31,811 nt of DNA from a virus. Both the position numbers and the translations under genes were made by a program. The notes beneath the pieces were generated by a model, which was not told where the DNA came from, ran no database searches, and saw only the letters and a list, made by a program, of their open reading frames with translations. Shown in pieces: positions 1-15,047 of this stretch (within the stretch, counting starts at the first letter, position 1; the number at the start of each line of letters is the position of its first letter). The stretch lies in the UHGV virus genome UHGV-0116366; one strand, written 5' to 3'.

Positions 1-1
1 C

Positions 2-76
2 TTCGAACGTCTGATGGAAGGCGCTAAACTGCTGAAATGCAGCGAGTTTGGTGACGCGATCATCGAAAACATGTAA
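2..76 (+). CDS. icd: 3' end of isocitrate dehydrogenase gene (partial; window starts inside the gene)
   Basis: Frame beginning at nt 2 translates to FERLMEGAKLLKCSEFGDAIIENM followed by TAA; this matches my recollection of the enterobacterial Icd C-terminus (KCSEFGDAIIENM). icd is a known integration site for lambdoid prophages such as e14 and phage 21. Confidence 0.75.
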   Translation, partial: FERLMEGAKLLKCSEFGDAIIENM

Positions 77-101
77 TCTGCTTTCTTGATTGCAACTGAA
101 A

Positions 102-128
102 CGGGAGCCAATTGGTTCCCGTTTTTAT
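102..128 (+). terminator. rho-independent terminator downstream of icd
   Basis: Hairpin aacgggagcc-aatt-ggttcccgtt followed by a T-run (ttttattatt). Confidence 0.6.
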
Positions 129-145
129 TATTAGCTTTCGAGCGG

Positions 146-165
146 TTATCAAAATATTATCAAAA
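146..165 (+). promoter_or_regulatory. tandem direct repeat TTATCAAAA (x2, 11-bp period) in the promoter region of the 200-1036 gene
   Basis: ggTTATCAAAAtaTTATCAAAAcag read directly; sits between a possible -35 (ttagct) and the start codon. Confidence 0.35.
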
Positions 166-199
166 CAGTTTAACAAAACGAACAAGGATAGCTTAAGTA

Positions 200-1036
200 A
201 TGATTCGTCTTTTAATGCTGATTAGTGCAGTATTTGGGATCGGCTATGGTTACGCGATAACGCATGATGTTTGGCCTTTTGAAGGTATGGATGCGAACCA
301 GCGAGGAGTTTTTGGCGACTCTTGGGGCGCTTTTACCTCAATCTTTTCTGCTATGGGGTTTTGTGGGGTTTTATGGACGATAAAGCTGCAGATGGATGCA
401 ACAAAAAAAATAGAGGATGATTTTAGGAAAAGGGAAGAAGCTGAAAAAATTAGGGATTTTGAGAACTCCTTCTTTAATATGTTGAGTATATTGCAAACAT
501 TAATTAAAGATATGAGGGTTGAAGGCTCTTCCGGGAAGACTTTGGCAGAAGGGCGTCATGTTTTTCTTTATTTTTTCAGACGATTCAAAAAAGAAGTTAG
601 ACAAAAAAATGGAATGTTATTAGATTATGACTCGAGTGATGAATCTGAAATTAAAAAAGCATCATCGAGAATGTCTAATGAATATAGGTTTTATTTCAGG
701 AATAGAGCTCAAAATTTATCTCATTACTTCAGATATATCTATAATATGTTTAAAATAATCCACGAATCTGATTTGTCTAACGTTAACAAGAAAAAATACG
801 CAAACATTTTACGCGCTCAACTTTCTAATTATGAGTTGCTAATGCTGTTTTATAATGCCAATTTCGTTCATGGTCAGAAATTTAAAGTATATATGAGCTT
901 GTATGCGATTCTGGATAATCTGCCAGCAGAGAAGCTTATAAATAAAAAACATGTTGCATTCTATGATAAAGAAGCGTGGGGTGATAATCTTGATGCATTA
1001 CAGTATCACCCCAAGTTTTTTGATTATGCAGATTAA
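200..1036 (+). CDS. AT-rich moron encoding a membrane-anchored protein; possible abortive-infection/exclusion (Abi-like) protein
   Basis: 278-aa ORF with hydrophobic N-terminal segments (LLMLISAVFGIGYGYAI, FTSIFSAMGFCGVLWTI) and a Lys/Asn/Tyr/Phe-rich soluble domain. Codon composition is much more AT-rich than flanking phage genes. It lies between the attachment-site gene (icd) and int, where e14 carries lit. Functional call is from memory of Abi-like families and is not verified. Confidence 0.55.
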   Translation: MIRLLMLISAVFGIGYGYAITHDVWPFEGMDANQRGVFGDSWGAFTSIFSAMGFCGVLWTIKLQMDATKKIEDDFRKREEAEKIRDFENSFFNMLSILQTLIKDMRVEGSSGKTLAEGRHVFLYFFRRFKKEVRQKNGMLLDYDSSDESEIKKASSRMSNEYRFYFRNRAQNLSHYFRYIYNMFKIIHESDLSNVNKKKYANILRAQLSNYELLMLFYNANFVHGQKFKVYMSLYAILDNLPAEKLINKKHVAFYDKEAWGDNLDALQYHPKFFDYAD

Positions 1037-4922: not shown

Positions 4923-5769
4923 ATTAACCGGCTACGTATGGGATGGTTGCGCGGCGTCGGGCATGAAGTTGTCTAGTGTCGCGATCATGGCTCGCCTTGC
5001 TGATTTCAGCAGCGATGAGGGGGTGTGCTGGCCGTCTATTGAAACTATTGCTCGCCAGCTTGGCGCAGGGCCGAGCACTATCAGAACGGCAATCGCTAAG
5101 CTTGAAAAAGATGGCTGGCTCACGCGTACACAGCGCCGTAATGGTAACCGTAATGCGTCGAACGTTTACCGCCTGAATGTGGCGAAACTTCAGGCTGCCG
5201 CATTTTCTCAACTGTCAGATTCTGACACGTCAAAATCTGACGCATCAAAATTTGACACCTCAAAAACTGACCCGTCGAAATCTGGCAAAATCGGCGGTTT
5301 TGACCCGTCAGAATCTGGCGGGGATCCGTCAGTAAAATCAACACAAGATCCACAAGTAACTTCAAAACCCTCTTGTCCGGTTGCGGCGCAACCAGACCCT
5401 GAAGTTGTGATTACCGACCAGGCGATTTTGGTTCTGACCCATTTGAACCAGATCAGCGGATCCCGGTATCAGAAATCCAAAACATCCCTGGAGAATATCC
5501 GCGCCCGACTGCGTGAGGGATACAGCGTTGCAGACCTGCAACTGGTTATCGACCTGAAGCATGAGCACTGGCACGAGAACGACGAGCAATACCAGTACAT
5601 GCGGCCGGAAACGCTTTTTGGTCCGAAGAAATTCGAGAGCTATCTGCAAAGCGCTACCCGCTGGGATCAGAAGGGACGGCCTAAACGCGCTGATTGGGGT
5701 GCGAAAAAGCGCGATGTGATGGCTTTTGGTCCGGTTGATACAACGATTCCTGCGGGGTTCAGAGGATGA
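4912..5769 (+). CDS. phage replication initiator (N-terminal HTH, C-terminal conserved phage replication domain)
   Basis: N-terminal winged-HTH-like region (SIETIARQLGAGPSTIRTAIAKLEKDGWLTR). C-terminal block (LENIRARLREGYSVADLQLVIDLKHEHWHENDEQYQYMRPETLFGPKKFESYLQ) is typical of lambdoid replication-organiser proteins. Iterons lie inside the gene. Confidence 0.8.
   Translation: MSTKLTGYVWDGCAASGMKLSSVAIMARLADFSSDEGVCWPSIETIARQLGAGPSTIRTAIAKLEKDGWLTRTQRRNGNRNASNVYRLNVAKLQAAAFSQLSDSDTSKSDASKFDTSKTDPSKSGKIGGFDPSESGGDPSVKSTQDPQVTSKPSCPVAAQPDPEVVITDQAILVLTHLNQISGSRYQKSKTSLENIRARLREGYSVADLQLVIDLKHEHWHENDEQYQYMRPETLFGPKKFESYLQSATRWDQKGRPKRADWGAKKRDVMAFGPVDTTIPAGFRG
5215..5335. repeat. origin-like iteron array inside the replication gene (about six copies of GTCARAWTCTGAC-like 12-13-mers)
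   Basis: tcagattctgac / gtcaaaatctgac / atcaaaatttgac / ctcaaaaactgac / gtcgaaatctggc / gtcagaatctggc are readable in tandem; they encode the low-complexity SDSDTSKSDASKFDTSKTDPSKSG linker. Confidence 0.6.
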
Positions 5770-6647
5770 CGTTAAACAAATATTGCCAGGCGCTGGCGGC
5801 ATTACGTAGCCAACCAGCCCACGAATTGAAAGAAGTTGGCGATCAGTGGCGGACGCCGGATCTGCTTTTTTGGGGGATCAACGCGCTATTTGGTCCATTA
5901 GTTCTGGACTTGTTTGCAGACGACGACAACGCGAAGTGCCCGGCATGGTACACCGCCGAAGATAACGCGCTGACACAGAACTGGTCTGAACGTCTGGATG
6001 AACTGGGCGGAGCGGCGTTTGCCAACCCTCCATATAGCCGCTCGCAGTATCACGACAGGCAGGCGATCACGGGTATGACACACATCATGAATCACACCAT
6101 GGACATGCGTGAAAGAGGTGGTCGCTATATTTACCTGGTGAAGTCTGCCACAAGTGAAACATGGTGGCCGGAAGATGCCGATCACATCATGTTTATTCGT
6201 GGTCGTATTGGGTTCGATCTGCCTGTGTGGTTTGTACCTGCTGACGAAAAACAGAAACCCACCAGCGCGTTTTTTGCCGGTGCCATAGCTGTATTCGATA
6301 AGTCATGGCGTGGTGAGCGGTTCAGCTATATCAACCGCACTGAGTTGGAGGCAAAAGGTCGGGCATTTATGGCGCTGGCTCAATTCGCTGTTGGTAAAGA
6401 GCAAACAATTGCAACGCTGGCAGCCCAGGAACCAGCAGCACCACCAAAAACTGAGTCACGAATCTGGCCTCTCGAAGTTGGTCTGGTGTTTAACCAAGTG
6501 GAAGGCGCTGATGTATTGAGCGAGGCCCAGCAGAACAAACTGAAAGCCAACATCAATCAACTCTGGCTGGAGCGGACGGCCACCAGCGAAATTATCGCAA
6601 TTGCGCGTGGCCTTGTTGGCAGCATGCAGGGGGTAACCCATGCGTGA
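5766..6647 (+). CDS. DNA N6-adenine methyltransferase (phage Dam-like) with C-terminal extension
   Basis: FANPPYS motif (NPPY catalytic motif of amino-MTases) in the N-terminal ~170 aa; C-terminal ~120 aa of unknown function. Confidence 0.75.
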   Translation: MTLNKYCQALAALRSQPAHELKEVGDQWRTPDLLFWGINALFGPLVLDLFADDDNAKCPAWYTAEDNALTQNWSERLDELGGAAFANPPYSRSQYHDRQAITGMTHIMNHTMDMRERGGRYIYLVKSATSETWWPEDADHIMFIRGRIGFDLPVWFVPADEKQKPTSAFFAGAIAVFDKSWRGERFSYINRTELEAKGRAFMALAQFAVGKEQTIATLAAQEPAAPPKTESRIWPLEVGLVFNQVEGADVLSEAQQNKLKANINQLWLERTATSEIIAIARGLVGSMQGVTHA

Positions 6648-8637
6648 GATTATCGTTGATAACTTTGCTGGTGGCGGTGGCGCATCAACGGGTATTGAAC
6701 TGGCAATCGGGCGCAGCGTGGATATTGCGATCAACCACGACGAAAACGCCATTGCGATGCACAAGACGAACCACCCGGACACACTGCATTATTGTGAATC
6801 CGTATTTGACGTGGATCCGGTAGCCGCCACCGGAGGTAATCCTGTCGGACTGGCATGGTTTAGCCCGGACTGCCGACACTTCTCGAAGGCAAAAGGCGCA
6901 AAGCCTGTGAAAAAAGAGATACGCGGTCTGGCCTGGATTGTTCTGCGTTGGGCACTGGCGAAGCGACCGCGCGTGATGATGCTGGAGAACGTGGAAGAGT
7001 TCAAAACGTGGGGACCGTTAATTGACATCCCGCCTAAACCTGATTTGCCGGAAGCCCTTTTGGCGGATTTTATTGGCCCGGTTTACCCTGGAAATAGTCG
7101 CCCAGACCCTGCCCGCACTGGAGAAACATTCAATGCATTTGTCGGCATGCTGTCCACTGGCATTCCTGCTGATCACCCGGCACTGGCTGAGGTTTGTGAG
7201 TTTCTGTCTATTGTAAGAGGTAGCGAGCAGGCGAAAAAGCTGGTGGATGGGCTCGGATATGATGTTGATTATCGTGAACTGCGCGCGTGTGATTACGGCG
7301 CGCCGACGATCCGCAAACGCTTCTTCATGGTTATGCGCTGCGATGGCTGCCCAATCCAGTGGCCTACTGTTACCCATGGGGATCCTAAGTCTCTGGAGGT
7401 GCAGAGCGGCAGGCTGATGCCATGGCGTACCGCTGCGGAATGTATCGACTGGAATGTTCCGGCCCTGTCCATCTTCGACCGCAAAAAACCGCTGGCGGAG
7501 AACACTTTGAAGCGGATCGCGCGCGGCATACAGCGCTTTGTTATCGAAAGTGCGTCGCCGTTTATCGTGAAGTGCAACCACACCACGACCAAAGGAAAAT
7601 ACGACTGTTTCCGTGGGCAGGAGTTGAGTGAGCCGCTGCAGACCATTACGAAAACCCATGGCTACGCGTTAGCCGTGCCACACCTGACAAAATTCCGCAC
7701 TGGCGCAACCGGGCAGCCCGTTACCGAGCCTGTCCCGACGGTAACCGCTGGCACATCAAAACGTCCAGGTGGGAATGGGCATGCACTCGGGATTGTTGAG
7801 GCTGCACTGACACCATTCCTGGCGGGTAATGGTGGTAGTGAATACCAGGCTAAACCACGCCCGCTGGATAAACCTGCTCATACCATTCTGAAGCAATCCC
7901 GCGCCTGTCTTGTTGCGCCAGTGATAGCCCGCCAGTTTGGGGCCAGCGTCGGCCATCGGGCAGACGAACCGAGCGCAACCATCACCGCTGGCGGTGGCGG
8001 TAAATCTCAACTGGTAACGCCTACGCTGATCCAGATGGGTTATGGCGAACGTCCAGGACAAGAACCGCGTGTGCTGCGACTGGATAACCCGCTGGGGACC
8101 GTTACTGCAGGTGGAAATAAATTCGCGACGGTGAGCGCGTTCCTGGCAAAACACTACGGCGGTAACTATACGGGGCCGGGTGTCAGTATGGATGAACCCG
8201 CGCACTCAGTGACCACTGTCGACCATCATGCAGTAGTTGCCTCTCATCTGGTGAAACTGCGAGGAACATGCCGCGACGGGCAGTGCCTTGATGTGCCCAT
8301 GCCAACAATCACCGCTGGTGGCCAACACGTGGGTGAGGTACGCACATTTCTCGAGACGTATTGCGGGGAAAGTGACGATGAATGGCTGGTAACGATCGAT
8401 GGGGTTAAATACCAGATCGTTGATATCGGAATGCGCATGTTGCAGCCGCATGAACTCTACAAAGCGCAGGGCTTCCCCGATGGATACGTTATTGATCAGG
8501 ACTACCGTGGAAATCGCTATGCAAAAGATAAGCAGGTAGCCCGCTGCGGTAATGCGGTACCACCACCATTCGCCAGGGCGCTGGTGGAGGCAAATCTTCC
8601 GGAACTGTGTGCAGTGCAACAGCAGGAGGTGGCATGA
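6640..8637 (+). CDS. DNA (cytosine-5) methyltransferase with unusually long variable region, possibly multispecific
   Basis: Motif I FAGGGG, PC-like motif FSPDCRHFS, motif VI MMLENV, motif VIII YGAPTIRKRFFMV, C-terminal CGNAVPPP. About 360 aa separate motif VIII from motif IX/X and contain four copies of a (T/V)(I/V)TAG(G/T) motif. Confidence 0.85.
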   Translation: MREIIVDNFAGGGGASTGIELAIGRSVDIAINHDENAIAMHKTNHPDTLHYCESVFDVDPVAATGGNPVGLAWFSPDCRHFSKAKGAKPVKKEIRGLAWIVLRWALAKRPRVMMLENVEEFKTWGPLIDIPPKPDLPEALLADFIGPVYPGNSRPDPARTGETFNAFVGMLSTGIPADHPALAEVCEFLSIVRGSEQAKKLVDGLGYDVDYRELRACDYGAPTIRKRFFMVMRCDGCPIQWPTVTHGDPKSLEVQSGRLMPWRTAAECIDWNVPALSIFDRKKPLAENTLKRIARGIQRFVIESASPFIVKCNHTTTKGKYDCFRGQELSEPLQTITKTHGYALAVPHLTKFRTGATGQPVTEPVPTVTAGTSKRPGGNGHALGIVEAALTPFLAGNGGSEYQAKPRPLDKPAHTILKQSRACLVAPVIARQFGASVGHRADEPSATITAGGGGKSQLVTPTLIQMGYGERPGQEPRVLRLDNPLGTVTAGGNKFATVSAFLAKHYGGNYTGPGVSMDEPAHSVTTVDHHAVVASHLVKLRGTCRDGQCLDVPMPTITAGGQHVGEVRTFLETYCGESDDEWLVTIDGVKYQIVDIGMRMLQPHELYKAQGFPDGYVIDQDYRGNRYAKDKQVARCGNAVPPPFARALVEANLPELCAVQQQEVA

Positions 8638-9020
8638 AACTTGTGCTCCCGTTCCCTCCAAGCGTGAACACTTACTGGCGCGCCCCTAATAAGGGGCCGC
8701 TGGCCGGTCGTCACCTCATTAGCGCTGATGGTCGTAAATACCAGAGCGCTGCCTGCGTGGCGATCATTGAGCAATTACGACGTCTCCCGAAGCCATCGAC
8801 TGAACTGGCAGCGGTAGAAATCACTCTGTACCCGCCGGATGCGCGCCGCCGGGATATCGATAATTACAACAAAGCCCTGTTTGACGCGCTGACGCATGCG
8901 GGTGTCTTGGAAGACGACAGCCAGATTAAGCGCATGCTGGTGGAATGGGGACCCGTAGTGCCGAAAGGTCGGGTAGAGATAACGATCAGCAGATATGAAC
9001 CGGCGGGTGCAGCCGCCTGA
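8634..9020 (+). CDS. rusA: Holliday junction resolvase RusA
   Basis: MKLVLPFPPSVNTYWR...DIDNYNKALFDALTHAGVLEDDSQI is the RusA signature. ATGA start/stop overlap with the MTase; AGGAGG RBS. Confidence 0.85.
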   Translation: MKLVLPFPPSVNTYWRAPNKGPLAGRHLISADGRKYQSAACVAIIEQLRRLPKPSTELAAVEITLYPPDARRRDIDNYNKALFDALTHAGVLEDDSQIKRMLVEWGPVVPKGRVEITISRYEPAGAAA

Positions 9021-10726: not shown

Positions 10727-11089
10727 ATGCGTGATATTCAGATGGTTTTAGAACGCTGGGGGGGCTGGGCATCAGCTGATAATTCTGGCGTTGACTATTC
10801 CCATATTGCCGCTGGCTTCAAGGGACTTTTACCGCAGACAAGCAAAACCAGGTTGTCATGTACAGATGATGATGCGCTTATCATTGAAAGTTGCCTAGCA
10901 CGACTGAAAAGCCGAAAGCCATATGAGCATTCGCTTCTTGTCGCTCACTACCTTTACGGTATCTCGAAGAGGAAGATAGCAAAAGCGCGAAAGAAGGATG
11001 AGAAACTGATACGCATCGAGATACAGATGGCTGAGGGGTTTATAGATGGTTGTCTCTCAATGCTTGATGTTCGTCTAGATATGGACTAA
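10727..11089 (+). CDS. late-gene antiterminator Q (phage 82 / QuuD type)
   Basis: 120-aa protein beginning MRDIQMVLERWGGWA, characteristic of the small Q antiterminator family; GGAG RBS; located upstream of the lysis genes. Confidence 0.7.
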   Translation: MRDIQMVLERWGGWASADNSGVDYSHIAAGFKGLLPQTSKTRLSCTDDDALIIESCLARLKSRKPYEHSLLVAHYLYGISKRKIAKARKKDEKLIRIEIQMAEGFIDGCLSMLDVRLDMD

Positions 11090-11137
11090 TTATTTTTGAT
11101 AGAGGCATTGTTGTTAGTTAATGTCTCTATCTTTACT

Positions 11138-11383
11138 CTAACTAAGGCCAAGGTATGCCAATACTACAGCTGTAATAATGCCAATAACAATACTTTTTAT
11201 GTTTTCTAAAATGAAATTAATAATCCTGCGCCATATAGTAATTGGATTTTCTTTCTTATATATCAATTTGTTAGTCGGCGCTCCAGACTTGTTTTTTTCA
11301 GCGAAAATATCATCTGCACCATCAATGTCAGCAAGTGTGCTTGAAGATGTTTCATTTTCATTAAGGTGTATTTTTTTTTGCAT
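11138..11383 (-). CDS. hypothetical membrane-anchored small protein (AT-rich moron)
   Basis: 81-aa ORF antisense to the late operon with a C-terminal hydrophobic helix (IVIGIITAVVLAYLGL); strongly AT-rich codons. Confidence 0.45.
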   Translation of the reverse strand: MQKKIHLNENETSSSTLADIDGADDIFAEKNKSGAPTNKLIYKKENPITIWRRIINFILENIKSIVIGIITAVVLAYLGLS

Positions 11384-11412
11384 TCCTTATGACAAACATT
11401 GGTCTATTATAT

Positions 11413-11703
11413 TTATCCATACAATACACTCCTTATAAATATACTGCATTGTGAAGGTTTGAAATTTGGTATGTTTTTTGTTACTCGTCGCATGCTGTGT
11501 GCATTAAATTTATCAATGTTTTTATTGGCCTTTATGGTTTTGCAATTGTCAATTATATAAGGTGTCTCACTACTGTTGGTTGTATTTCCATTTAAAGTTA
11601 TGCTTTCAACATTATTTGCGATGAGAAATGGAGTATTCAGGTTTGAGGTATTATTATTAAAAACTACGTGACCACAGTTTTGTACGTAAAATATTGCATG
11701 CAT
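11413..11703 (-). CDS. hypothetical Asn/Thr-rich protein (AT-rich moron)
   Basis: 96-aa ORF upstream of and co-oriented with 11138-11383. A sigma70-like promoter on the minus strand (TTCTCA - 17 nt - TATACT) lies just upstream at about 11720-11750. Weak RBS. Confidence 0.35.
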   Translation of the reverse strand: MHAIFYVQNCGHVVFNNNTSNLNTPFLIANNVESITLNGNTTNSSETPYIIDNCKTIKANKNIDKFNAHSMRRVTKNIPNFKPSQCSIFIRSVLYG

Positions 11704-11812
11704 ATTAGTAACTCACGAAAGCATTAGTATACAAAGCAAGCATAACATTGAGAACACTCTACAGATTTTTAAGGAAAAAACAATCACGCGGTCCGCATTA
11801 CTTGGTGTATTG

Positions 11813-11829
11813 TGTTAAGAGTGGTCACT
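11813..11829. repeat. copy 1 of 17-bp motif TGTTAAGAGTGGTCACT
   Basis: 16/17 identical to 15348-15364 (TGTTAAGAGTGGTTACT); both lie just upstream of rightward late-gene blocks after antisense moron insertions. Confidence 0.5.
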
Positions 11830-11855
11830 TAGACGCGAACTTAAATATTTCAGAA

Positions 11856-11881
11856 CCTCGCCAATCGGCGGGGTTTTTTTC
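11856..11881 (+). terminator. rho-independent terminator (tR'-like) upstream of the lysis cassette
   Basis: cctcgccaatcggcgggg hairpin followed by tttttttc; lies downstream of Q and upstream of the holin, as expected for a Q-modifiable terminator. Confidence 0.5.
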
Positions 11882-11989
11882 ATTTCAGGCCCAGGTTAAA
11901 AACTGCAGATTAACCGTGATCACATGAGCTTGCGGCCTGAACCCTTTCCCCTCGTTTCTGAGAGGATTCACAGCAATTGAGGGGGACAG

Positions 11990-12376
11990 ATGTCCGAACC
12001 AATAACCGGCACAGGTTTAGCTGGTGGCGCTTTAACTGGGGCGAGTGTTTACGGACTGTTAACCGGAACAGATTATGGTGTGGTGTTTGGCGCGTTTGCC
12101 GGGGCTGTATTTTACATTGCAACGGCTGCGGACCTTAGCGCAGCACGTCGGCTGGCGTATTTTGTCGTGTCCTACATTGCCGGGATCATCTGCTCAGGGC
12201 TGGTTGGTTCAAAGCTGGCTGACTGGACTGGTTACAGTGATAAGCCTCTGGACGCTATCGGAGCCGTAATCGTTTCTGCTTTAGCTGTCAAAATCCTGAC
12301 GTTCCTGAATAACCAGGATGTCGGCTCGCTGGTGGCGCTGATAACGCGCCGGGGAGGTTCAGGTGGTACTAAATGA
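11990..12376 (+). CDS. holin-like membrane protein
   Basis: 128-aa Gly/Ala-rich protein with several hydrophobic helices, first gene of the lysis cassette. Confidence 0.55.
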   Translation: MSEPITGTGLAGGALTGASVYGLLTGTDYGVVFGAFAGAVFYIATAADLSAARRLAYFVVSYIAGIICSGLVGSKLADWTGYSDKPLDAIGAVIVSALAVKILTFLNNQDVGSLVALITRRGGSGGTK

Positions 12377-13899: not shown

Positions 13900-14136
13900 A
13901 TGAGCCAAGTTACATTAACTATTAGTGAACTTTATGAAATTGCAGAGCAGTATTATGGAAACGAACTCTACCGTATAGAAGTTTGCAACATTGGAATTAG
14001 GTTCGTGTGTTTGGATCGTAGCAAGGGCAATGAAGAGTACTCTGCATTTTTCCAGACTCCTTTAAAAAATCTGTCTATAAACTCACTTAGAGGCTTTCTC
14101 GATGCGGAAACACAGGAGGAAAGCATAAGCAATTGA
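13900..14136 (+). CDS. hypothetical small protein (AT-rich moron)
   Basis: Start at 13900 preferred (GAGGGGAG RBS); product MSQVTLTISELYEIAEQYYGNELYRIEV... has no recognisable family. Confidence 0.45.
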   Translation: MSQVTLTISELYEIAEQYYGNELYRIEVCNIGIRFVCLDRSKGNEEYSAFFQTPLKNLSINSLRGFLDAETQEESISN

Positions 14137-14296
14137 AGGGCAGGTCACCTTTGATGGTGTCATTTGCTTGAATTGTTTTAAAAATGCACAAGCCCGTTAC
14201 AGTGTGAATGTGGTATGCATTACTGCGGGTATTTGCTGAGTGCCTGTGTTAATGTTGCTGCTGTAATAATGAGATGGTTTGTAAAAAAGGAAGGGA

Positions 14297-14611
14297 TTGA
14301 AAATGATTTTCCAAAATATTCAGACGTACTACATTACCAGCGATAAACATAAGGTTATTCCGCGATATGTCCGATATGACGTAATTAAATTGGATGATAA
14401 TGCTTACATAGTAAATGTTATTGATGACCAACAAAGAGGTATCTCGCCCCCTTATAGTCTTGTTATGTTAGATAAAATTACAATTACTAAAGCTGAGTAT
14501 CTTGATAAGTACCAAATTGGTTCCTTTACTGGGGTTAGAACGCAAAGTCCTCCAACCTTTGAAGGATATATTACAGAACATCTTCAAGAGCATCGTAATC
14601 AGTTAGATTAA
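14297..14611 (+). CDS. hypothetical protein (AT-rich moron)
   Basis: 104-aa ORF with AAGGAAGGG RBS; followed by a terminator hairpin. Confidence 0.5.
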   Translation: MKMIFQNIQTYYITSDKHKVIPRYVRYDVIKLDDNAYIVNVIDDQQRGISPPYSLVMLDKITITKAEYLDKYQIGSFTGVRTQSPPTFEGYITEHLQEHRNQLD

Positions 14612-14624
14612 GTTCCGTATCAAC

Positions 14625-14668
14625 ATAAGCCACTGTTTTTCTATGGTGGCTTATGTGTGTTTTTATTT
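14625..14668 (+). terminator. terminator hairpin between convergent moron genes
   Basis: ataagccac ... gtggcttat inverted repeat followed by gtgtgttttta. Confidence 0.5.
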
Positions 14669-14678
14669 AGCTGTGCAT

Positions 14679-15047
14679 TCAAAGAAATATTTTATTGATT
14701 AATGCTTCTATAGATGGCCAGATGGATAAGGTATTTGCACCGATGCTAGTAAGTTTTTCAAGAAGGTCAACTTTTGACTCTTTCGTCGGCTCAATTTCAC
14801 TAATGGTAGCAAGTAATCGGTCATAACCTTTTTGACCTAACTCTTTTTCGCATACACTTTTGTTACTCTTGATTAAAAGTTGAGCTTGATAAATTAGTTC
14901 AAGCGTCTCCCTATTGCCGATCAGATTCTCATTAACTTTTGTATTAGGAGAATTCACTACTTCAATTGCTGTATCTATAACATCAACAGTGTTGTTATTC
15001 ACTTCGCAACCAATTGAGTCTTTAATAACAATACCTTTGAGAGCCAT
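14679..15047 (-). CDS. hypothetical protein, possible C-terminal part of a split HEAT-repeat protein
   Basis: ATG at 15047 preceded by GAGGT RBS; lies 9-20 nt downstream of the HEAT-repeat ORF in a different frame. Confidence 0.45.
   Translation of the reverse strand: MALKGIVIKDSIGCEVNNNTVDVIDTAIEVVNSPNTKVNENLIGNRETLELIYQAQLLIKSNKSVCEKELGQKGYDRLLATISEIEPTKESKVDLLEKLTSIGANTLSIWPSIEALINKIFL

What the first reader, a model, noticed from the sequence alone, without database searches (positions are those of the whole stretch)
7700..8340. Long variable region of the C5-methyltransferase contains four repeated TRD-like modules
Between motif VIII (YGAPTIRKRFFMV) and the C-terminal CGNAVPPP motif lie about 360 aa containing four copies of P-x-(T/V)-(I/V)-T-A-G-(G/T) (VPTVTAGT, SATITAGGGG, LGTVTAGGNK, PMPTITAGGQ). 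Monospecific C5-MTases have a single target-recognition domain; repeated TRD-like units suggest a multispecific enzyme able to protect against several restriction systems.
Basis: partly seen in the sequence, partly recalled or inferred. Interest (0 to 1): 0.55.

Follow-up and report, generated by a model that had tools for sequence, protein, structure and literature searches.

The report
Phage cytosine methylase with seven recognition cassettes
A prophage DNA cytosine methyltransferase carries seven (not four) tandem copies of the short module that normally reads the target sequence, and comparison with thousands of relatives shows these modules are gained, lost and shuffled as cassettes, which fits (but does not prove) an enzyme that protects phage DNA against several restriction systems at once.

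Summary
ORF 6640-8637 (+) is an intact 665-aa C5 cytosine methyltransferase in the early region of a lambdoid prophage. They are the clearest four of seven contiguous ~33-aa units (aa 330-582), consensus DEPxxT[IV]TAGG..hALVaafLakyyGG..G.

The T[IV] matches the conserved "TL dipeptide" that sits between recognition Loops 1 and 2 of a C5-MTase target-recognition domain (TRD).

The family is large: 2533 representatives at E<1e-30, in phages and plasmids of many phyla, with 1-12 units each.

- Close homologues differ by clean one-period indels, all with the same phase.
- Across 150 distant representatives the co-inherited block is strand-loop-PxxT[IV]T-loop (AMI 0.36 versus 0.07).
- Cassette types recur at different positions and in both orders.
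- Every unit is under strong purifying selection (dN/dS 0.01-0.1, dS saturated).
- The experimentally multispecific Bacillus phage enzymes carry exactly one such motif per putative TRD segment (segments drawn by eye), and their GGCC domain is the best BLASTP match to unit 6.

Multispecificity is therefore plausible (about 0.5) but untested. AlphaFold could not resolve the array, and no methylome exists. I rate it a new variant of a known kind.

The parts
6640..8637 (+). C5 cytosine DNA methyltransferase gene, 665 aa
   Evidence: ORF. Pfam PF00145 E 4e-20. More than 8000 homologues. The exact protein is present in JGI/IMG and ENA, in a 90%-identity cluster of 1124 members from Salmonella, Citrobacter and E. 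coli.
6664..6681 (+). Motif I FAGGGG (AdoMet binding), aa 9-14
   Evidence: Sequence. Invariant in close homologues and more than 90% conserved in distant ones.
6862..6885 (+). Motif IV SPDCRHFS with catalytic Cys78 (a 'PDC' variant of the PC motif)
   Evidence: P76 and C78 are invariant in 111 distant sequences. Inteins are inserted at about this position in long family members.
6985..6993 (+). Motif VI ENV, aa 116-118
   Evidence: Invariant E116, N117 and V118.
7027..7089 (+). Variable 21-aa insertion in the catalytic domain (aa 130-150), present or absent among close homologues
   Evidence: 49 of 121 close sequences lack it.
7294..7332 (+). Motif VIII YGAPTIRKRFFMV, aa 219-231
   Evidence: T223, R225 and R227 are invariant. 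Aligns to motif VIII of 3g7u and of HhaI.
7555..7671 (+). Cassette 1 (aa 306-344): SPFIVKCNHTTTKGKYDCFRGQELS-EPLQTITKTHGYAL
   Evidence: Unit 1 starts at aa 330. The left boundary is approximate.
7672..7806 (+). Cassette 2 (aa 345-389), carries VPTVTAGT with a long loop 2. Absent in P0107 and in phage phiNP.
   Evidence: deletion of exactly aa 345-389.
7807..7911 (+). Cassette 3 (aa 390-424), carries PAHTILKQ. Absent in 8 close homologue clusters.
   Evidence: the deletion is aligned as aa 394-428; the breakpoint is ambiguous within the strand.
7912..8013 (+). Cassette 4 (aa 425-458), carries SATITAGGGG
8014..8130 (+). Cassette 5 (aa 459-497), carries LGTVTAGGNK. Absent in 38 close homologue clusters.
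   Evidence: deletion of exactly aa 459-497.
8131..8235 (+). Cassette 6 (aa 498-532), carries DEPAHSVTTVDHHAV. It is the best BLASTP match to what I recall as the GGCC ('H') TRD of the Bacillus phage enzymes. An extra cassette is inserted after it in some homologues.
   Evidence: score 46, reached by 0 of 500 shuffles; E 0.01 and 0.003. The insertion is seen.
8236..8337 (+). Cassette 7 (aa 533-566), carries PMPTITAGGQ. This type is usually penultimate in the family.
   Evidence: type D is followed by type A or by the end of the array.
8338..8433 (+). Tail (aa 567-598). It holds the strand of cassette 7 plus the remnant of the family's usual terminal cassette, whose PxxTxT motif has been lost here (ESDDEWLVTIDG against DEPLGTVTTNDRFGLVTVDG in phiNP).
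8434..8487 (+). Motif IX RMLQPHELYKAQGFPDGY, aa 599-616
8545..8568 (+). Motif X CGNAVPPP, aa 636-643
5766..6647 (+). Upstream phage Dam-type N6-adenine methyltransferase. Its stop overlaps the C5 gene start by 8 nt (ATGCGTGA).
   Evidence: Pfam PF05869 E 6e-45. Sequence. The same pairing occurs in Citrobacter phage phiNP.
8634..9020 (+). Downstream RusA resolvase. The likely start is ATG 8634, which overlaps the methylase stop (ATGA) and follows a GGAGG.
   Evidence: Pfam PF05866. Sequence.

Best explanation
The gene encodes an orphan, phage-borne C5 cytosine methyltransferase. The region between motifs VIII and IX is a tandem array of seven short target-recognition cassettes. Each cassette has a hydrophobic beta-strand, a Gly-rich loop (Loop-1-like), the DEPxxT[IV]T strand that carries the conserved 'TL' dipeptide, and a second variable loop (Loop-2-like). 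The proposed mechanism is inferred. One catalytic core is shared, and any one cassette can dock beside the active site and present its two loops to the major groove. The enzyme would then methylate several unrelated short sequences. The gene is translationally coupled to a Dam-type adenine methylase in the early-right operon of a lambdoid prophage. It would be expressed on induction or infection and would pre-methylate progeny DNA, so that the phage escapes several Type II (and other methylation-sensitive) restriction systems in its next host. Shown here: the intact catalytic motifs, the seven units, their cassette-wise inheritance, their dispensability, and the selective constraint on them. 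Inferred: that each cassette, or most of them, specifies its own target.
For: (1) The catalytic motifs I, IV, VI, VIII, IX and X are intact and conserved, and the core is modelled at pLDDT above 90.
(2) Seven contiguous units tile aa 330-582, with P3, T6 and G30 invariant.
(3) In solved C5-MTases the TL dipeptide lies between recognition Loops 1 and 2 (PMC2790894).
(4) M.SPRI, M.Phi3TI, M.Rho11sI and M.H2I, which are multispecific by experiment (PMC8936443; PMC12707154), show exactly one [SA]PT[IL]T[TS]-type motif in each of the putative TRD segments I delimited by eye in their sequences. The unit HMM scores their variable regions above all 500 shuffles. Unit 6 against what I recall as the GGCC TRD is the best BLASTP segment between the proteins.
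(5) Homologues that are more than 80% identical differ by clean one-period indels at three places within the query's array, plus an extra cassette inserted after cassette 6 in some. The computed breakpoints all fall at unit positions 16/17-21; the phase of the insertion was read by eye from the alignments. The variants are abundant in genomes.
(6) In 150 representatives at 50% identity or less, the second half of unit i is co-inherited with the first half of unit i+1 (AMI 0.36 and 0.31). It is not co-inherited with its own first half (0.07-0.09; control 0.07-0.11). The heritable module is therefore Loop1-TL-Loop2.
(7) There are 115 cassette types. The middle types occur at positions 1-9 and in both orders: CB is common, and BC and FB also occur.
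(8) dN/dS is 0.02-0.11 for the array and 0.01-0.1 for most units, with dS saturated at 1-2.5. That is as constrained as the catalytic core.
(9) The usual terminal cassette has lost its TL motif in this lineage while the protein stays constrained, so no single unit is privileged.
(10) The context is orphan and early-phage, beside a second orphan methylase and with no nuclease partner.
Against: No experimental specificity exists for any family member in the literature I could search. AlphaFold2 gives pLDDT 27-65 across the array even with 111 diverse sequences, so independent folding of the cassettes is not shown. The cassettes (34-45 aa) are at or below the 38-53 aa that I recall for the Bacillus TRDs. 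Seven to twelve specificities in one enzyme would be unprecedented. Cassette order is only partly free: type A is terminal in 83 of 88 cases and D, I and J are usually penultimate, as expected if part of the array is a fixed scaffold. The similarity of the unit HMM to the Bacillus TRDs is weak (4-12 bits), and the HMM does not detect the TL region of E. coli Dcm or of M.HhaI. The cassette 5 and 6 matches to the Bacillus TRDs are borderline after correction for 35 comparisons. Heavy m5C would expose the phage to the McrBC-type Type IV systems common in enterobacteria (general knowledge).
Confidence: 0.5

Rival explanations
1. There is one composite recognition domain. The repeated beta-hairpins stack into a single extended beta-sheet or solenoid-like small domain. 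Only one or two hairpins next to motif IX read the bases. The others give non-specific DNA affinity or act as scaffold. The enzyme has one target, possibly a short or relaxed one.
For: Both models predict a strand-loop-strand for each unit (DSSP). Open-ended repeat proteins tolerate changes in copy number. The C-terminal cassettes are position-specific across the family: A is terminal in 83 of 88 cases and D, I and J are penultimate. The pair C then B is frequent, 21 of 55. From my recollection of its structure, the canonical small domain of M.HhaI is itself built from several hairpins.
Against: Type-specific loops are conserved under strong purifying selection while they differ sharply between types. 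That is the signature of distinct binding surfaces rather than scaffold repeats. Coupling across the cassette boundary is no higher than the neighbour control. Cassettes occur in both orders. Single cassettes are dispensable in abundant natural variants. The cassette nearest motif IX has lost its TL motif here.
Confidence: 0.28
2. The array is mostly relics. One or two cassettes are active, and the rest are inactive 'pseudo-domains' of the kind I recall being described for the rho11s and H2 enzymes. They would be kept as raw material for recombination.
For: M.Rho11sI and M.H2I contain an extra M-type segment, and rho11s has a G-to-E change in its F-type loop (sequences). That these are inactive is my recollection of Lange et al. 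1991. The query's own terminal cassette is degenerate.
Against: dN/dS of 0.01-0.1 in most units across lineages whose synonymous sites are saturated is not expected for inactive relics.
Confidence: 0.12
3. The array reads DNA collectively. Successive hairpins contact successive positions along the DNA, as in a repeat code, so the array specifies one long or composite site. Alternatively the array binds something other than DNA, such as a host defence protein.
For: The period is regular at 33 aa, the loops are variable, the copy number is variable and the order is combinatorial.
Against: No precedent exists among C5-MTases. The unit carries the TL motif, which in solved structures lies beside the flipped base, and only one unit at a time can occupy that place. 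Nothing else supports this reading.
Confidence: 0.05

Closest known systems
Multispecific C5-MTases of Bacillus subtilis-group temperate phages (M.SPRI, M.Phi3TI, M.Rho11sI, M.H2I, M.SPBetaI) and the chromosomal M.BssHII
   Same: They are orphan, phage-borne enzymes with one catalytic core. Several contiguous short TRDs lie between motifs VIII and IX, each with a single T-[ILV] motif followed by a Gly-rich loop and a hydrophobic strand. The last TRD is conserved across enzymes. Unit 6 resembles their DEPAFTVNTIDRHGVA segment.
   Different: The catalytic cores belong to different subfamilies. BLASTP finds only motif-level matches, and the query has SPDC where they have SPCQ. The query has seven cassettes, and its family has 1-12, against 2-4. 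The period is shorter and more regular. The hosts are Proteobacteria, Actinobacteria, Firmicutes and archaea, on phages and plasmids. No specificity has been measured.
Monospecific C5-MTases with solved DNA complexes (M.HhaI, M.HaeIII)
   Same: The catalytic fold is the same. The TRD logic is Loop 1, then the TL dipeptide, then Loop 2 (PMC2790894), which is the composition of each cassette here.
   Different: They have one TRD. The unit HMM does not detect their TL region, and no PDB chain matches the unit profile.
Dorothy_75 / PopTart_63-type orphan methylases of actinobacteriophages (Gosselin et al. 2023, PMC9957025)
   Same: They are probably the same protein family. The query finds 50 Gordonia and 25 Mycobacterium phage records by tblastn. 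Long family representatives carry a Hint/LAGLIDADG intein, as that paper describes for its methylases. The paper also reports within-gene recombination and a patchy distribution.
   Different: That paper deals with inteins, a homing endonuclease and the 'ShiLan' insertion. Its text does not mention cytosine, target recognition or the repeats analysed here. I did not compare the query directly with Dorothy_75.
TRD movement in Type I HsdS subunits ('domain movement', PMC3077401 and PMC3467074, seen only as titles and abstracts)
   Same: The evolutionary principle is the same: recognition modules move between positions and between genes while the catalytic machinery stays fixed.
   Different: The enzyme class is different (adenine MTase complexes with two TRDs per subunit), and so is the TRD fold.

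Membership tests
DNA (cytosine-5) methyltransferase, Pfam PF00145 | Profile match above the curated cutoff | tested here: met
   72.9 bits against a cutoff of 22, E 4e-20. NCBIfam TIGR00675 scores only 53 bits against a cutoff of 100.65, so it falls below the 'dcm' threshold.
DNA (cytosine-5) methyltransferase, Pfam PF00145 | Motif I FxGxG, motif IV Pro-Cys with the catalytic Cys, motif VI ENV, motif VIII RxR, and motifs IX and X | tested here: met
   FAGGGG at aa 9, SPDC at aa 75-78, ENV at aa 116, TIRKR at aa 223-227, QGFP at aa 610 and GNAVPPP at aa 637. All are conserved in 111 distant relatives. Variants: PDC in place of PCQ, and T in place of Q in motif VIII.
DNA (cytosine-5) methyltransferase, Pfam PF00145 | Catalytic-domain fold | tested here: met
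   The core has pLDDT above 90. The Foldseek top hits are 3g7u, DNMT1/MET1, M.HaeIII and M.HhaI.
DNA (cytosine-5) methyltransferase, Pfam PF00145 | Transfers methyl to C5 of cytosine in DNA | not testable with these tools
   Needs expression followed by 5mC mapping.
Multispecific C5-MTases (SPR / phi3T / rho11s / H2 type) | Two or more contiguous TRDs between motifs VIII and IX, each with its own TL-type motif | tested here: met
   Seven units, each with T[IV]. The Bacillus enzymes show one motif in each of the putative TRD segments I delimited by eye.
Multispecific C5-MTases (SPR / phi3T / rho11s / H2 type) | Each TRD confers one specificity, and removing it abolishes only that specificity | not testable with these tools
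   Proxies only: natural one-cassette deletions occur in abundant, constrained homologues, and cassettes are co-inherited as blocks.
Multispecific C5-MTases (SPR / phi3T / rho11s / H2 type) | Sequence relatedness to the SPbeta-group enzymes beyond the universal motifs | tested here: not met
   BLASTP gives only short segments with E of 0.003 or worse for a single comparison. The unit HMM scores 4-12 bits. I therefore file this as working like that family, not as a member of that lineage.
Multispecific C5-MTases (SPR / phi3T / rho11s / H2 type) | Encoded by a temperate phage with no cognate endonuclease | tested here: met
   The neighbours are integrase, cI, cII, a replication gene, Dam, RusA, Ant, Q and TerL, with no nuclease partner. 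Five related phages show the same early-region position.
Dorothy_75-type actinophage methylase family (PMC9957025) | Homology to the actinophage methylases, and an intein at a conserved site in some members | tested here: inconclusive
   Actinophage hits. Inteins at about aa 78-98 of long representatives. No direct alignment to Dorothy_75 was made.

The most novel reading that the evidence does not exclude
A very large family of orphan C5 methyltransferases, spread across phyla on phages and plasmids, uses a combinatorial array of up to a dozen ~35-aa recognition cassettes (Loop1-TL-Loop2). The cassettes are exchanged and reordered between genes. Single enzymes would then carry many more specificities than the two to five known from Bacillus, and would form a natural, modular toolkit for retargeting cytosine methylation.
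Probability: 0.4. Interest if true: 0.72.

Novelty: new variant of a known kind. Interest (0 to 1): 0.58.

Why it matters
As far as I know, multispecific cytosine methyltransferases are documented by experiment only in a handful of Bacillus phage enzymes and one chromosomal enzyme, all described decades ago. If this family works the same way, multispecificity is a widespread anti-restriction strategy of temperate phages and plasmids. That would include the prophages of Salmonella, Citrobacter, Klebsiella and E. coli. It would also explain why one gene of variable length sits in so many early operons.

The cassette boundaries defined here give exact construct designs for testing one cassette at a time. 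Short, naturally swappable recognition cassettes on a common catalytic core would be useful for engineering site-selective 5mC writers. They would also help in interpreting 5mC motifs in metagenomic methylomes, where one gene may account for several motifs.

Tried and rejected
- **AlphaFold2 with 19 close homologues.** Mean pLDDT was 46, which is unusable.
- **AlphaFold2 with 111 diverse representatives.** The core was good, but the array had pLDDT 27-65.
- **Foldseek against PDB and BFVD.** Only catalytic-core matches appeared, and nothing matched the array. The afdb50 library was not available.
- **Unit profile and cassette 6 against PDB sequences.** No hits.
- **Pfam on the array alone.** No domain. 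PHROGs gives only a generic 'DNA methyltransferase'.
- **DNA-level repeats.** None were found, so recent slippage or duplication is rejected.
- **Unit HMM on E. coli Dcm and on M.HhaI (sequence recalled from memory).** No detection. The link to monospecific TRDs therefore rests on the motif and on the literature, not on a score.
- **Target assignment for cassettes.** Pairwise similarity to the Bacillus TRDs gave only c6~H and c5~F at p about 0.002. That is borderline after 35 tests, so I make no target prediction.
- **Literature.** Nine full-text searches found no description of this array and no measured specificity for the family. The original Trautner-lab papers are not held. The IncA/C plasmid dcm paper gave no usable motif data, and I did not test whether those dcm genes belong to this family.
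- **A first clustering by HMM-defined unit.** It suggested a semi-fixed order. Re-phasing to the cassette boundary changed that picture.
Full report
**What is there.**
The finding lies inside ORF 6640-8637 on the + strand, 665 aa. The product matches Pfam PF00145 (C-5 cytosine methylase) at E 4e-20, 72.9 bits against a cutoff of 22. It carries the expected catalytic motifs:
- motif I, FAGGGG, at aa 9
- motif IV, SPDC, with Cys78
- motif VI, ENV, at aa 116
- motif VIII, TIRKR, at aa 223-227
- motif IX, RMLQPHELYKAQGFP, at aa 599
- motif X, CGNAVPPP, at aa 636

These residues are invariant or nearly so in 111 relatives that share about 50% identity with the query. AlphaFold2 models the catalytic core at pLDDT above 90, and Foldseek matches it to C5-MTases only.

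The window is a lambdoid prophage. It encodes an integrase, a cI-like repressor, cII, a replication protein, a Dam-type adenine methylase, this gene, RusA, an antirepressor, DUF968, Q and terminase. The Dam stop overlaps the start of the C5 gene by 8 nt. The C5 stop overlaps a good RusA start (GGAGG then ATG at 8634), so the three genes look translationally coupled. There is no endonuclease partner.

**Checking the observation.**
All four quoted peptides are present at aa 364-371, 445-454, 485-494 and 553-562, which is nt 7729-8325. T[IV]TAG is expected 0.003 times in a shuffle of this protein, and none of 20000 shuffles had four.

The looser pattern P..[TS][IV][TL] occurs seven times, at aa 332, 364, 412, 444, 484, 520 and 553. 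The seven segments align to one another as DEPxxT[IV]T, then a loop, then a hydrophobic strand, then a Gly-rich loop. An HMM built from them and iterated on relatives tiles aa 330-582 without gaps. Its consensus is DEPLPTVTAGGNHHALVAAFLAKYYGGEVGQPV, with P3, T6 and G30 essentially invariant.

There is no repeat at the DNA level beyond a 19-nt match between two TITAGG sites. The duplication is therefore old. No Pfam model covers the array.

**The family.**
The exact protein exists in IMG and ENA metagenome data. Its 90%-identity cluster has 1124 members from Salmonella, Citrobacter and E. coli. A word-indexed search returned more than 8000 homologues, the scoring cap. The best 120 are Enterobacteriaceae proteins of 580-717 aa. 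An exhaustive HMMER search of cluster representatives at 50% identity found 2533 proteins at E<1e-30.

The top 150 representatives carry 1-12 units, with a mode of 6-7 and a spacing mode of 32-35 aa. By tblastn the family is in 213 phage records (Gordonia 50, Pseudomonas 35, Mycobacterium 25, Vibrio 20 and others) and in 197 plasmid records, including haloarchaeal ones.

Long members carry Hint/LAGLIDADG inteins at about aa 78-98, close to where the query has its catalytic Cys motif. This probably identifies the family with the actinophage orphan methylases of Gosselin et al. 2023. That paper discusses inteins and within-gene recombination, but its text mentions neither cytosine nor target recognition.

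**Why the units look like target-recognition domains.**
In M.HhaI and M.HaeIII the target is read by two loops, Loop 1 and Loop 2. These flank a conserved TL dipeptide in the TRD (PMC2790894). The T[IV] of each unit fits that dipeptide, with a Gly-rich loop on either side.

I fetched the four classic multispecific Bacillus phage enzymes. Published work describes them as carrying multiple TRDs in tandem (PMC8936443; PMC12707154). I divided their variable regions by eye into putative TRD segments. Each segment holds exactly one [SA]PT[IL]T[TS]-type motif, followed by a Gly-rich loop and a hydrophobic strand. There are three in M.SPRI, two in M.Phi3TI and four in M.Rho11sI and M.H2I.

Some points here rest on my memory of the Trautner-lab papers, which are not in the held library. 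These are the assignment of each segment to a target (H = GGCC and so on), the TRD size of 38-53 aa, and the existence of inactive pseudo-domains.

The unit HMM scores the Bacillus variable regions only 4-12 bits. Even so, every score is above all 500 composition-matched shuffles. In direct BLASTP of the query against M.SPRI and M.Rho11sI, the top segment is not a catalytic motif. It is unit 6 against the last Bacillus TRD: DEPAHSVTTVDHHAVVASHLVKLR against DEPAFTVNTIDRHGVAIGEYPKYR, 11 of 24 identical, E 0.003. The HMM does not detect the TL region of E. coli Dcm or of M.HhaI. The link to monospecific TRDs is therefore by motif and by the literature, not by score.

**Cassette behaviour: the main new evidence.**
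- *Clean indels in close homologues.* Among sequences more than 80% identical, the array differs by clean indels of exactly one period.
  - aa 345-389 is missing in one cluster and in phage phiNP.
  - aa 394-428 is missing in eight clusters.
  - aa 459-497 is missing in 38 clusters.
  - An extra unit, in two allelic forms, is inserted after aa 532 in others.
  - The computed breakpoints all fall at unit positions 16/17 to 21, in the hydrophobic strand just after the second loop. I read the phase of the insertion by eye from the alignments.
  - The variants are common in sequenced genomes.
I then asked which halves are inherited together.
  - The strand-plus-loop half of unit i is strongly associated with the PxxT[IV]T-plus-loop half of unit i+1 (adjusted mutual information 0.36 and 0.31 at two thresholds).
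  - Its association with its own first half is only 0.07-0.09, no better than the neighbour control of 0.07-0.11.
  - The heritable block is therefore strand, Loop 1, TL, Loop 2, which is the composition of a TRD. Its boundary coincides with the indel breakpoints.
  - Re-phased this way, the query has seven cassettes of 34-45 aa.
- *Combinatorial architectures.* Cassette strings in the representatives show 115 types. One type (A) is terminal in 83 of 88 cases, and a few types are usually penultimate. The middle types (B, C, E, F, G, H) occupy positions 1-9 with many different neighbours and in both orders.
- *Selective constraint.* I compared the query with five phage homologues. Synonymous sites are saturated (dS 1-2.5), yet dN/dS is 0.02-0.11 for the array and 0.01-0.1 for most individual units. 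That constraint is at least as tight as in the catalytic core.
- *No privileged unit.* The family's usual terminal cassette (DEPLGTVTTNDRFGLVTV in phiNP) has lost its PxxTxT motif in the query lineage (ESDDEWLVTIDG), while the rest stays constrained. The unit next to motif IX is therefore not uniquely required.

**Interpretation.**
The best-supported reading is an orphan phage C5-MTase with a shared catalytic core and an array of independently inherited, individually dispensable, individually constrained TRD-like cassettes. By analogy with the Bacillus enzymes it would be multispecific. It would be expressed from the early operon on induction or infection and would protect progeny DNA from several restriction systems. 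I give this about 0.5.

The main rival, at about 0.28, is a single composite recognition domain built of repeated hairpins, with only one or two of them reading bases. The fixed C-terminal cassettes, the frequent C-B pair and the hairpin-rich nature of canonical small domains favour it. The type-specific loop conservation, the absence of coupling across cassette boundaries, the reversed orders and the natural single-cassette deletions count against it.

A mixed picture with some inactive pseudo-domains is possible (about 0.12), but it fits poorly with the low dN/dS. A collective repeat-code reading, or a target other than DNA, is a remote possibility (about 0.05).

**What could not be settled.**
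It is inconclusive, with array pLDDT of 27-65, probably because cassette shuffling scrambles the alignment. No methylome or restriction-protection data for any member was found in nine literature searches. That library lacks most subscription journals and REBASE, so prior knowledge cannot be excluded. I make no target prediction for any cassette.

**Verdict.**
- Relative to known systems this is a new variant of a known kind. It has the logic of the Bacillus multispecific enzymes, but in an unrelated C5-MTase lineage with far more numerous, shorter cassettes and evidence of family-wide cassette shuffling.
- Interest is 0.58.

Noticed in passing
window 5766-6647 and 6640-8637: Two orphan methyltransferase genes sit in tandem and overlap by 8 nt (ATGCGTGA): a phage Dam-type N6-adenine MTase (PF05869) and the C5 MTase. 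Citrobacter phage phiNP has the same pair. In Escherichia phages Flotzy and Eeyore the upstream partner is instead annotated as a PAPS reductase.
   Followed up: partly
window 8607-9020: The ORF list starts RusA at GTG 8607. An ATG at 8634, preceded by GGAGG, gives the typical MKLVLPFPPSVNTYW N-terminus and overlaps the methylase stop as ATGA. The shorter start is more likely.
   Followed up: partly
window 7027-7089 (aa 130-150): A 21-aa segment inside the catalytic domain (IPPKPDLPEALLADFIGPVYP) is present or absent among close homologues. 49 of 121 lack it, and at least two sequence versions exist. Its role is unknown, and AlphaFold confidence drops there.
   Followed up: partly
family representatives P0130, P0164, P0195, P0201, P0215, P0191, P0267: Members of 930-1113 aa carry a Hint/LAGLIDADG intein at about aa 78-98, close to where the query has its catalytic Cys motif. 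This ties the family to the intein-bearing actinophage methylases of PMC9957025.
   Followed up: partly
alignment columns after aa 570 in Kpn_R1, Kp4866-6, Klebsiella phage 5 and P0065/P0069: A 17-aa acidic segment (TLAVEDYDEERAQQVLA) is inserted between the last TITAGG loop and its strand in many Klebsiella-type homologues. It is absent in the query.
   Followed up: no
window 1-1000, 11001-12000, 14001-15000: Three 1-kb stretches have GC of about 0.36, against 0.50-0.57 elsewhere in the window. They may be accessory (moron-like) or lysis-region insertions.
   Followed up: no
window 7018-7659, 7756-8205, 8206-8661 (minus strand): Long antisense ORFs of 213, 149 and 151 aa lie inside the methylase gene. 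The plus-strand frame is under strong purifying selection and has thousands of homologues, so these are most likely non-coding. They were not searched.
   Followed up: no
phage record KY197768.1 (labelled Bacillus phage phi105), 29224-30543: tblastn finds a family member at 48.6% identity in two pieces, at a place with no annotated feature.
   Followed up: no
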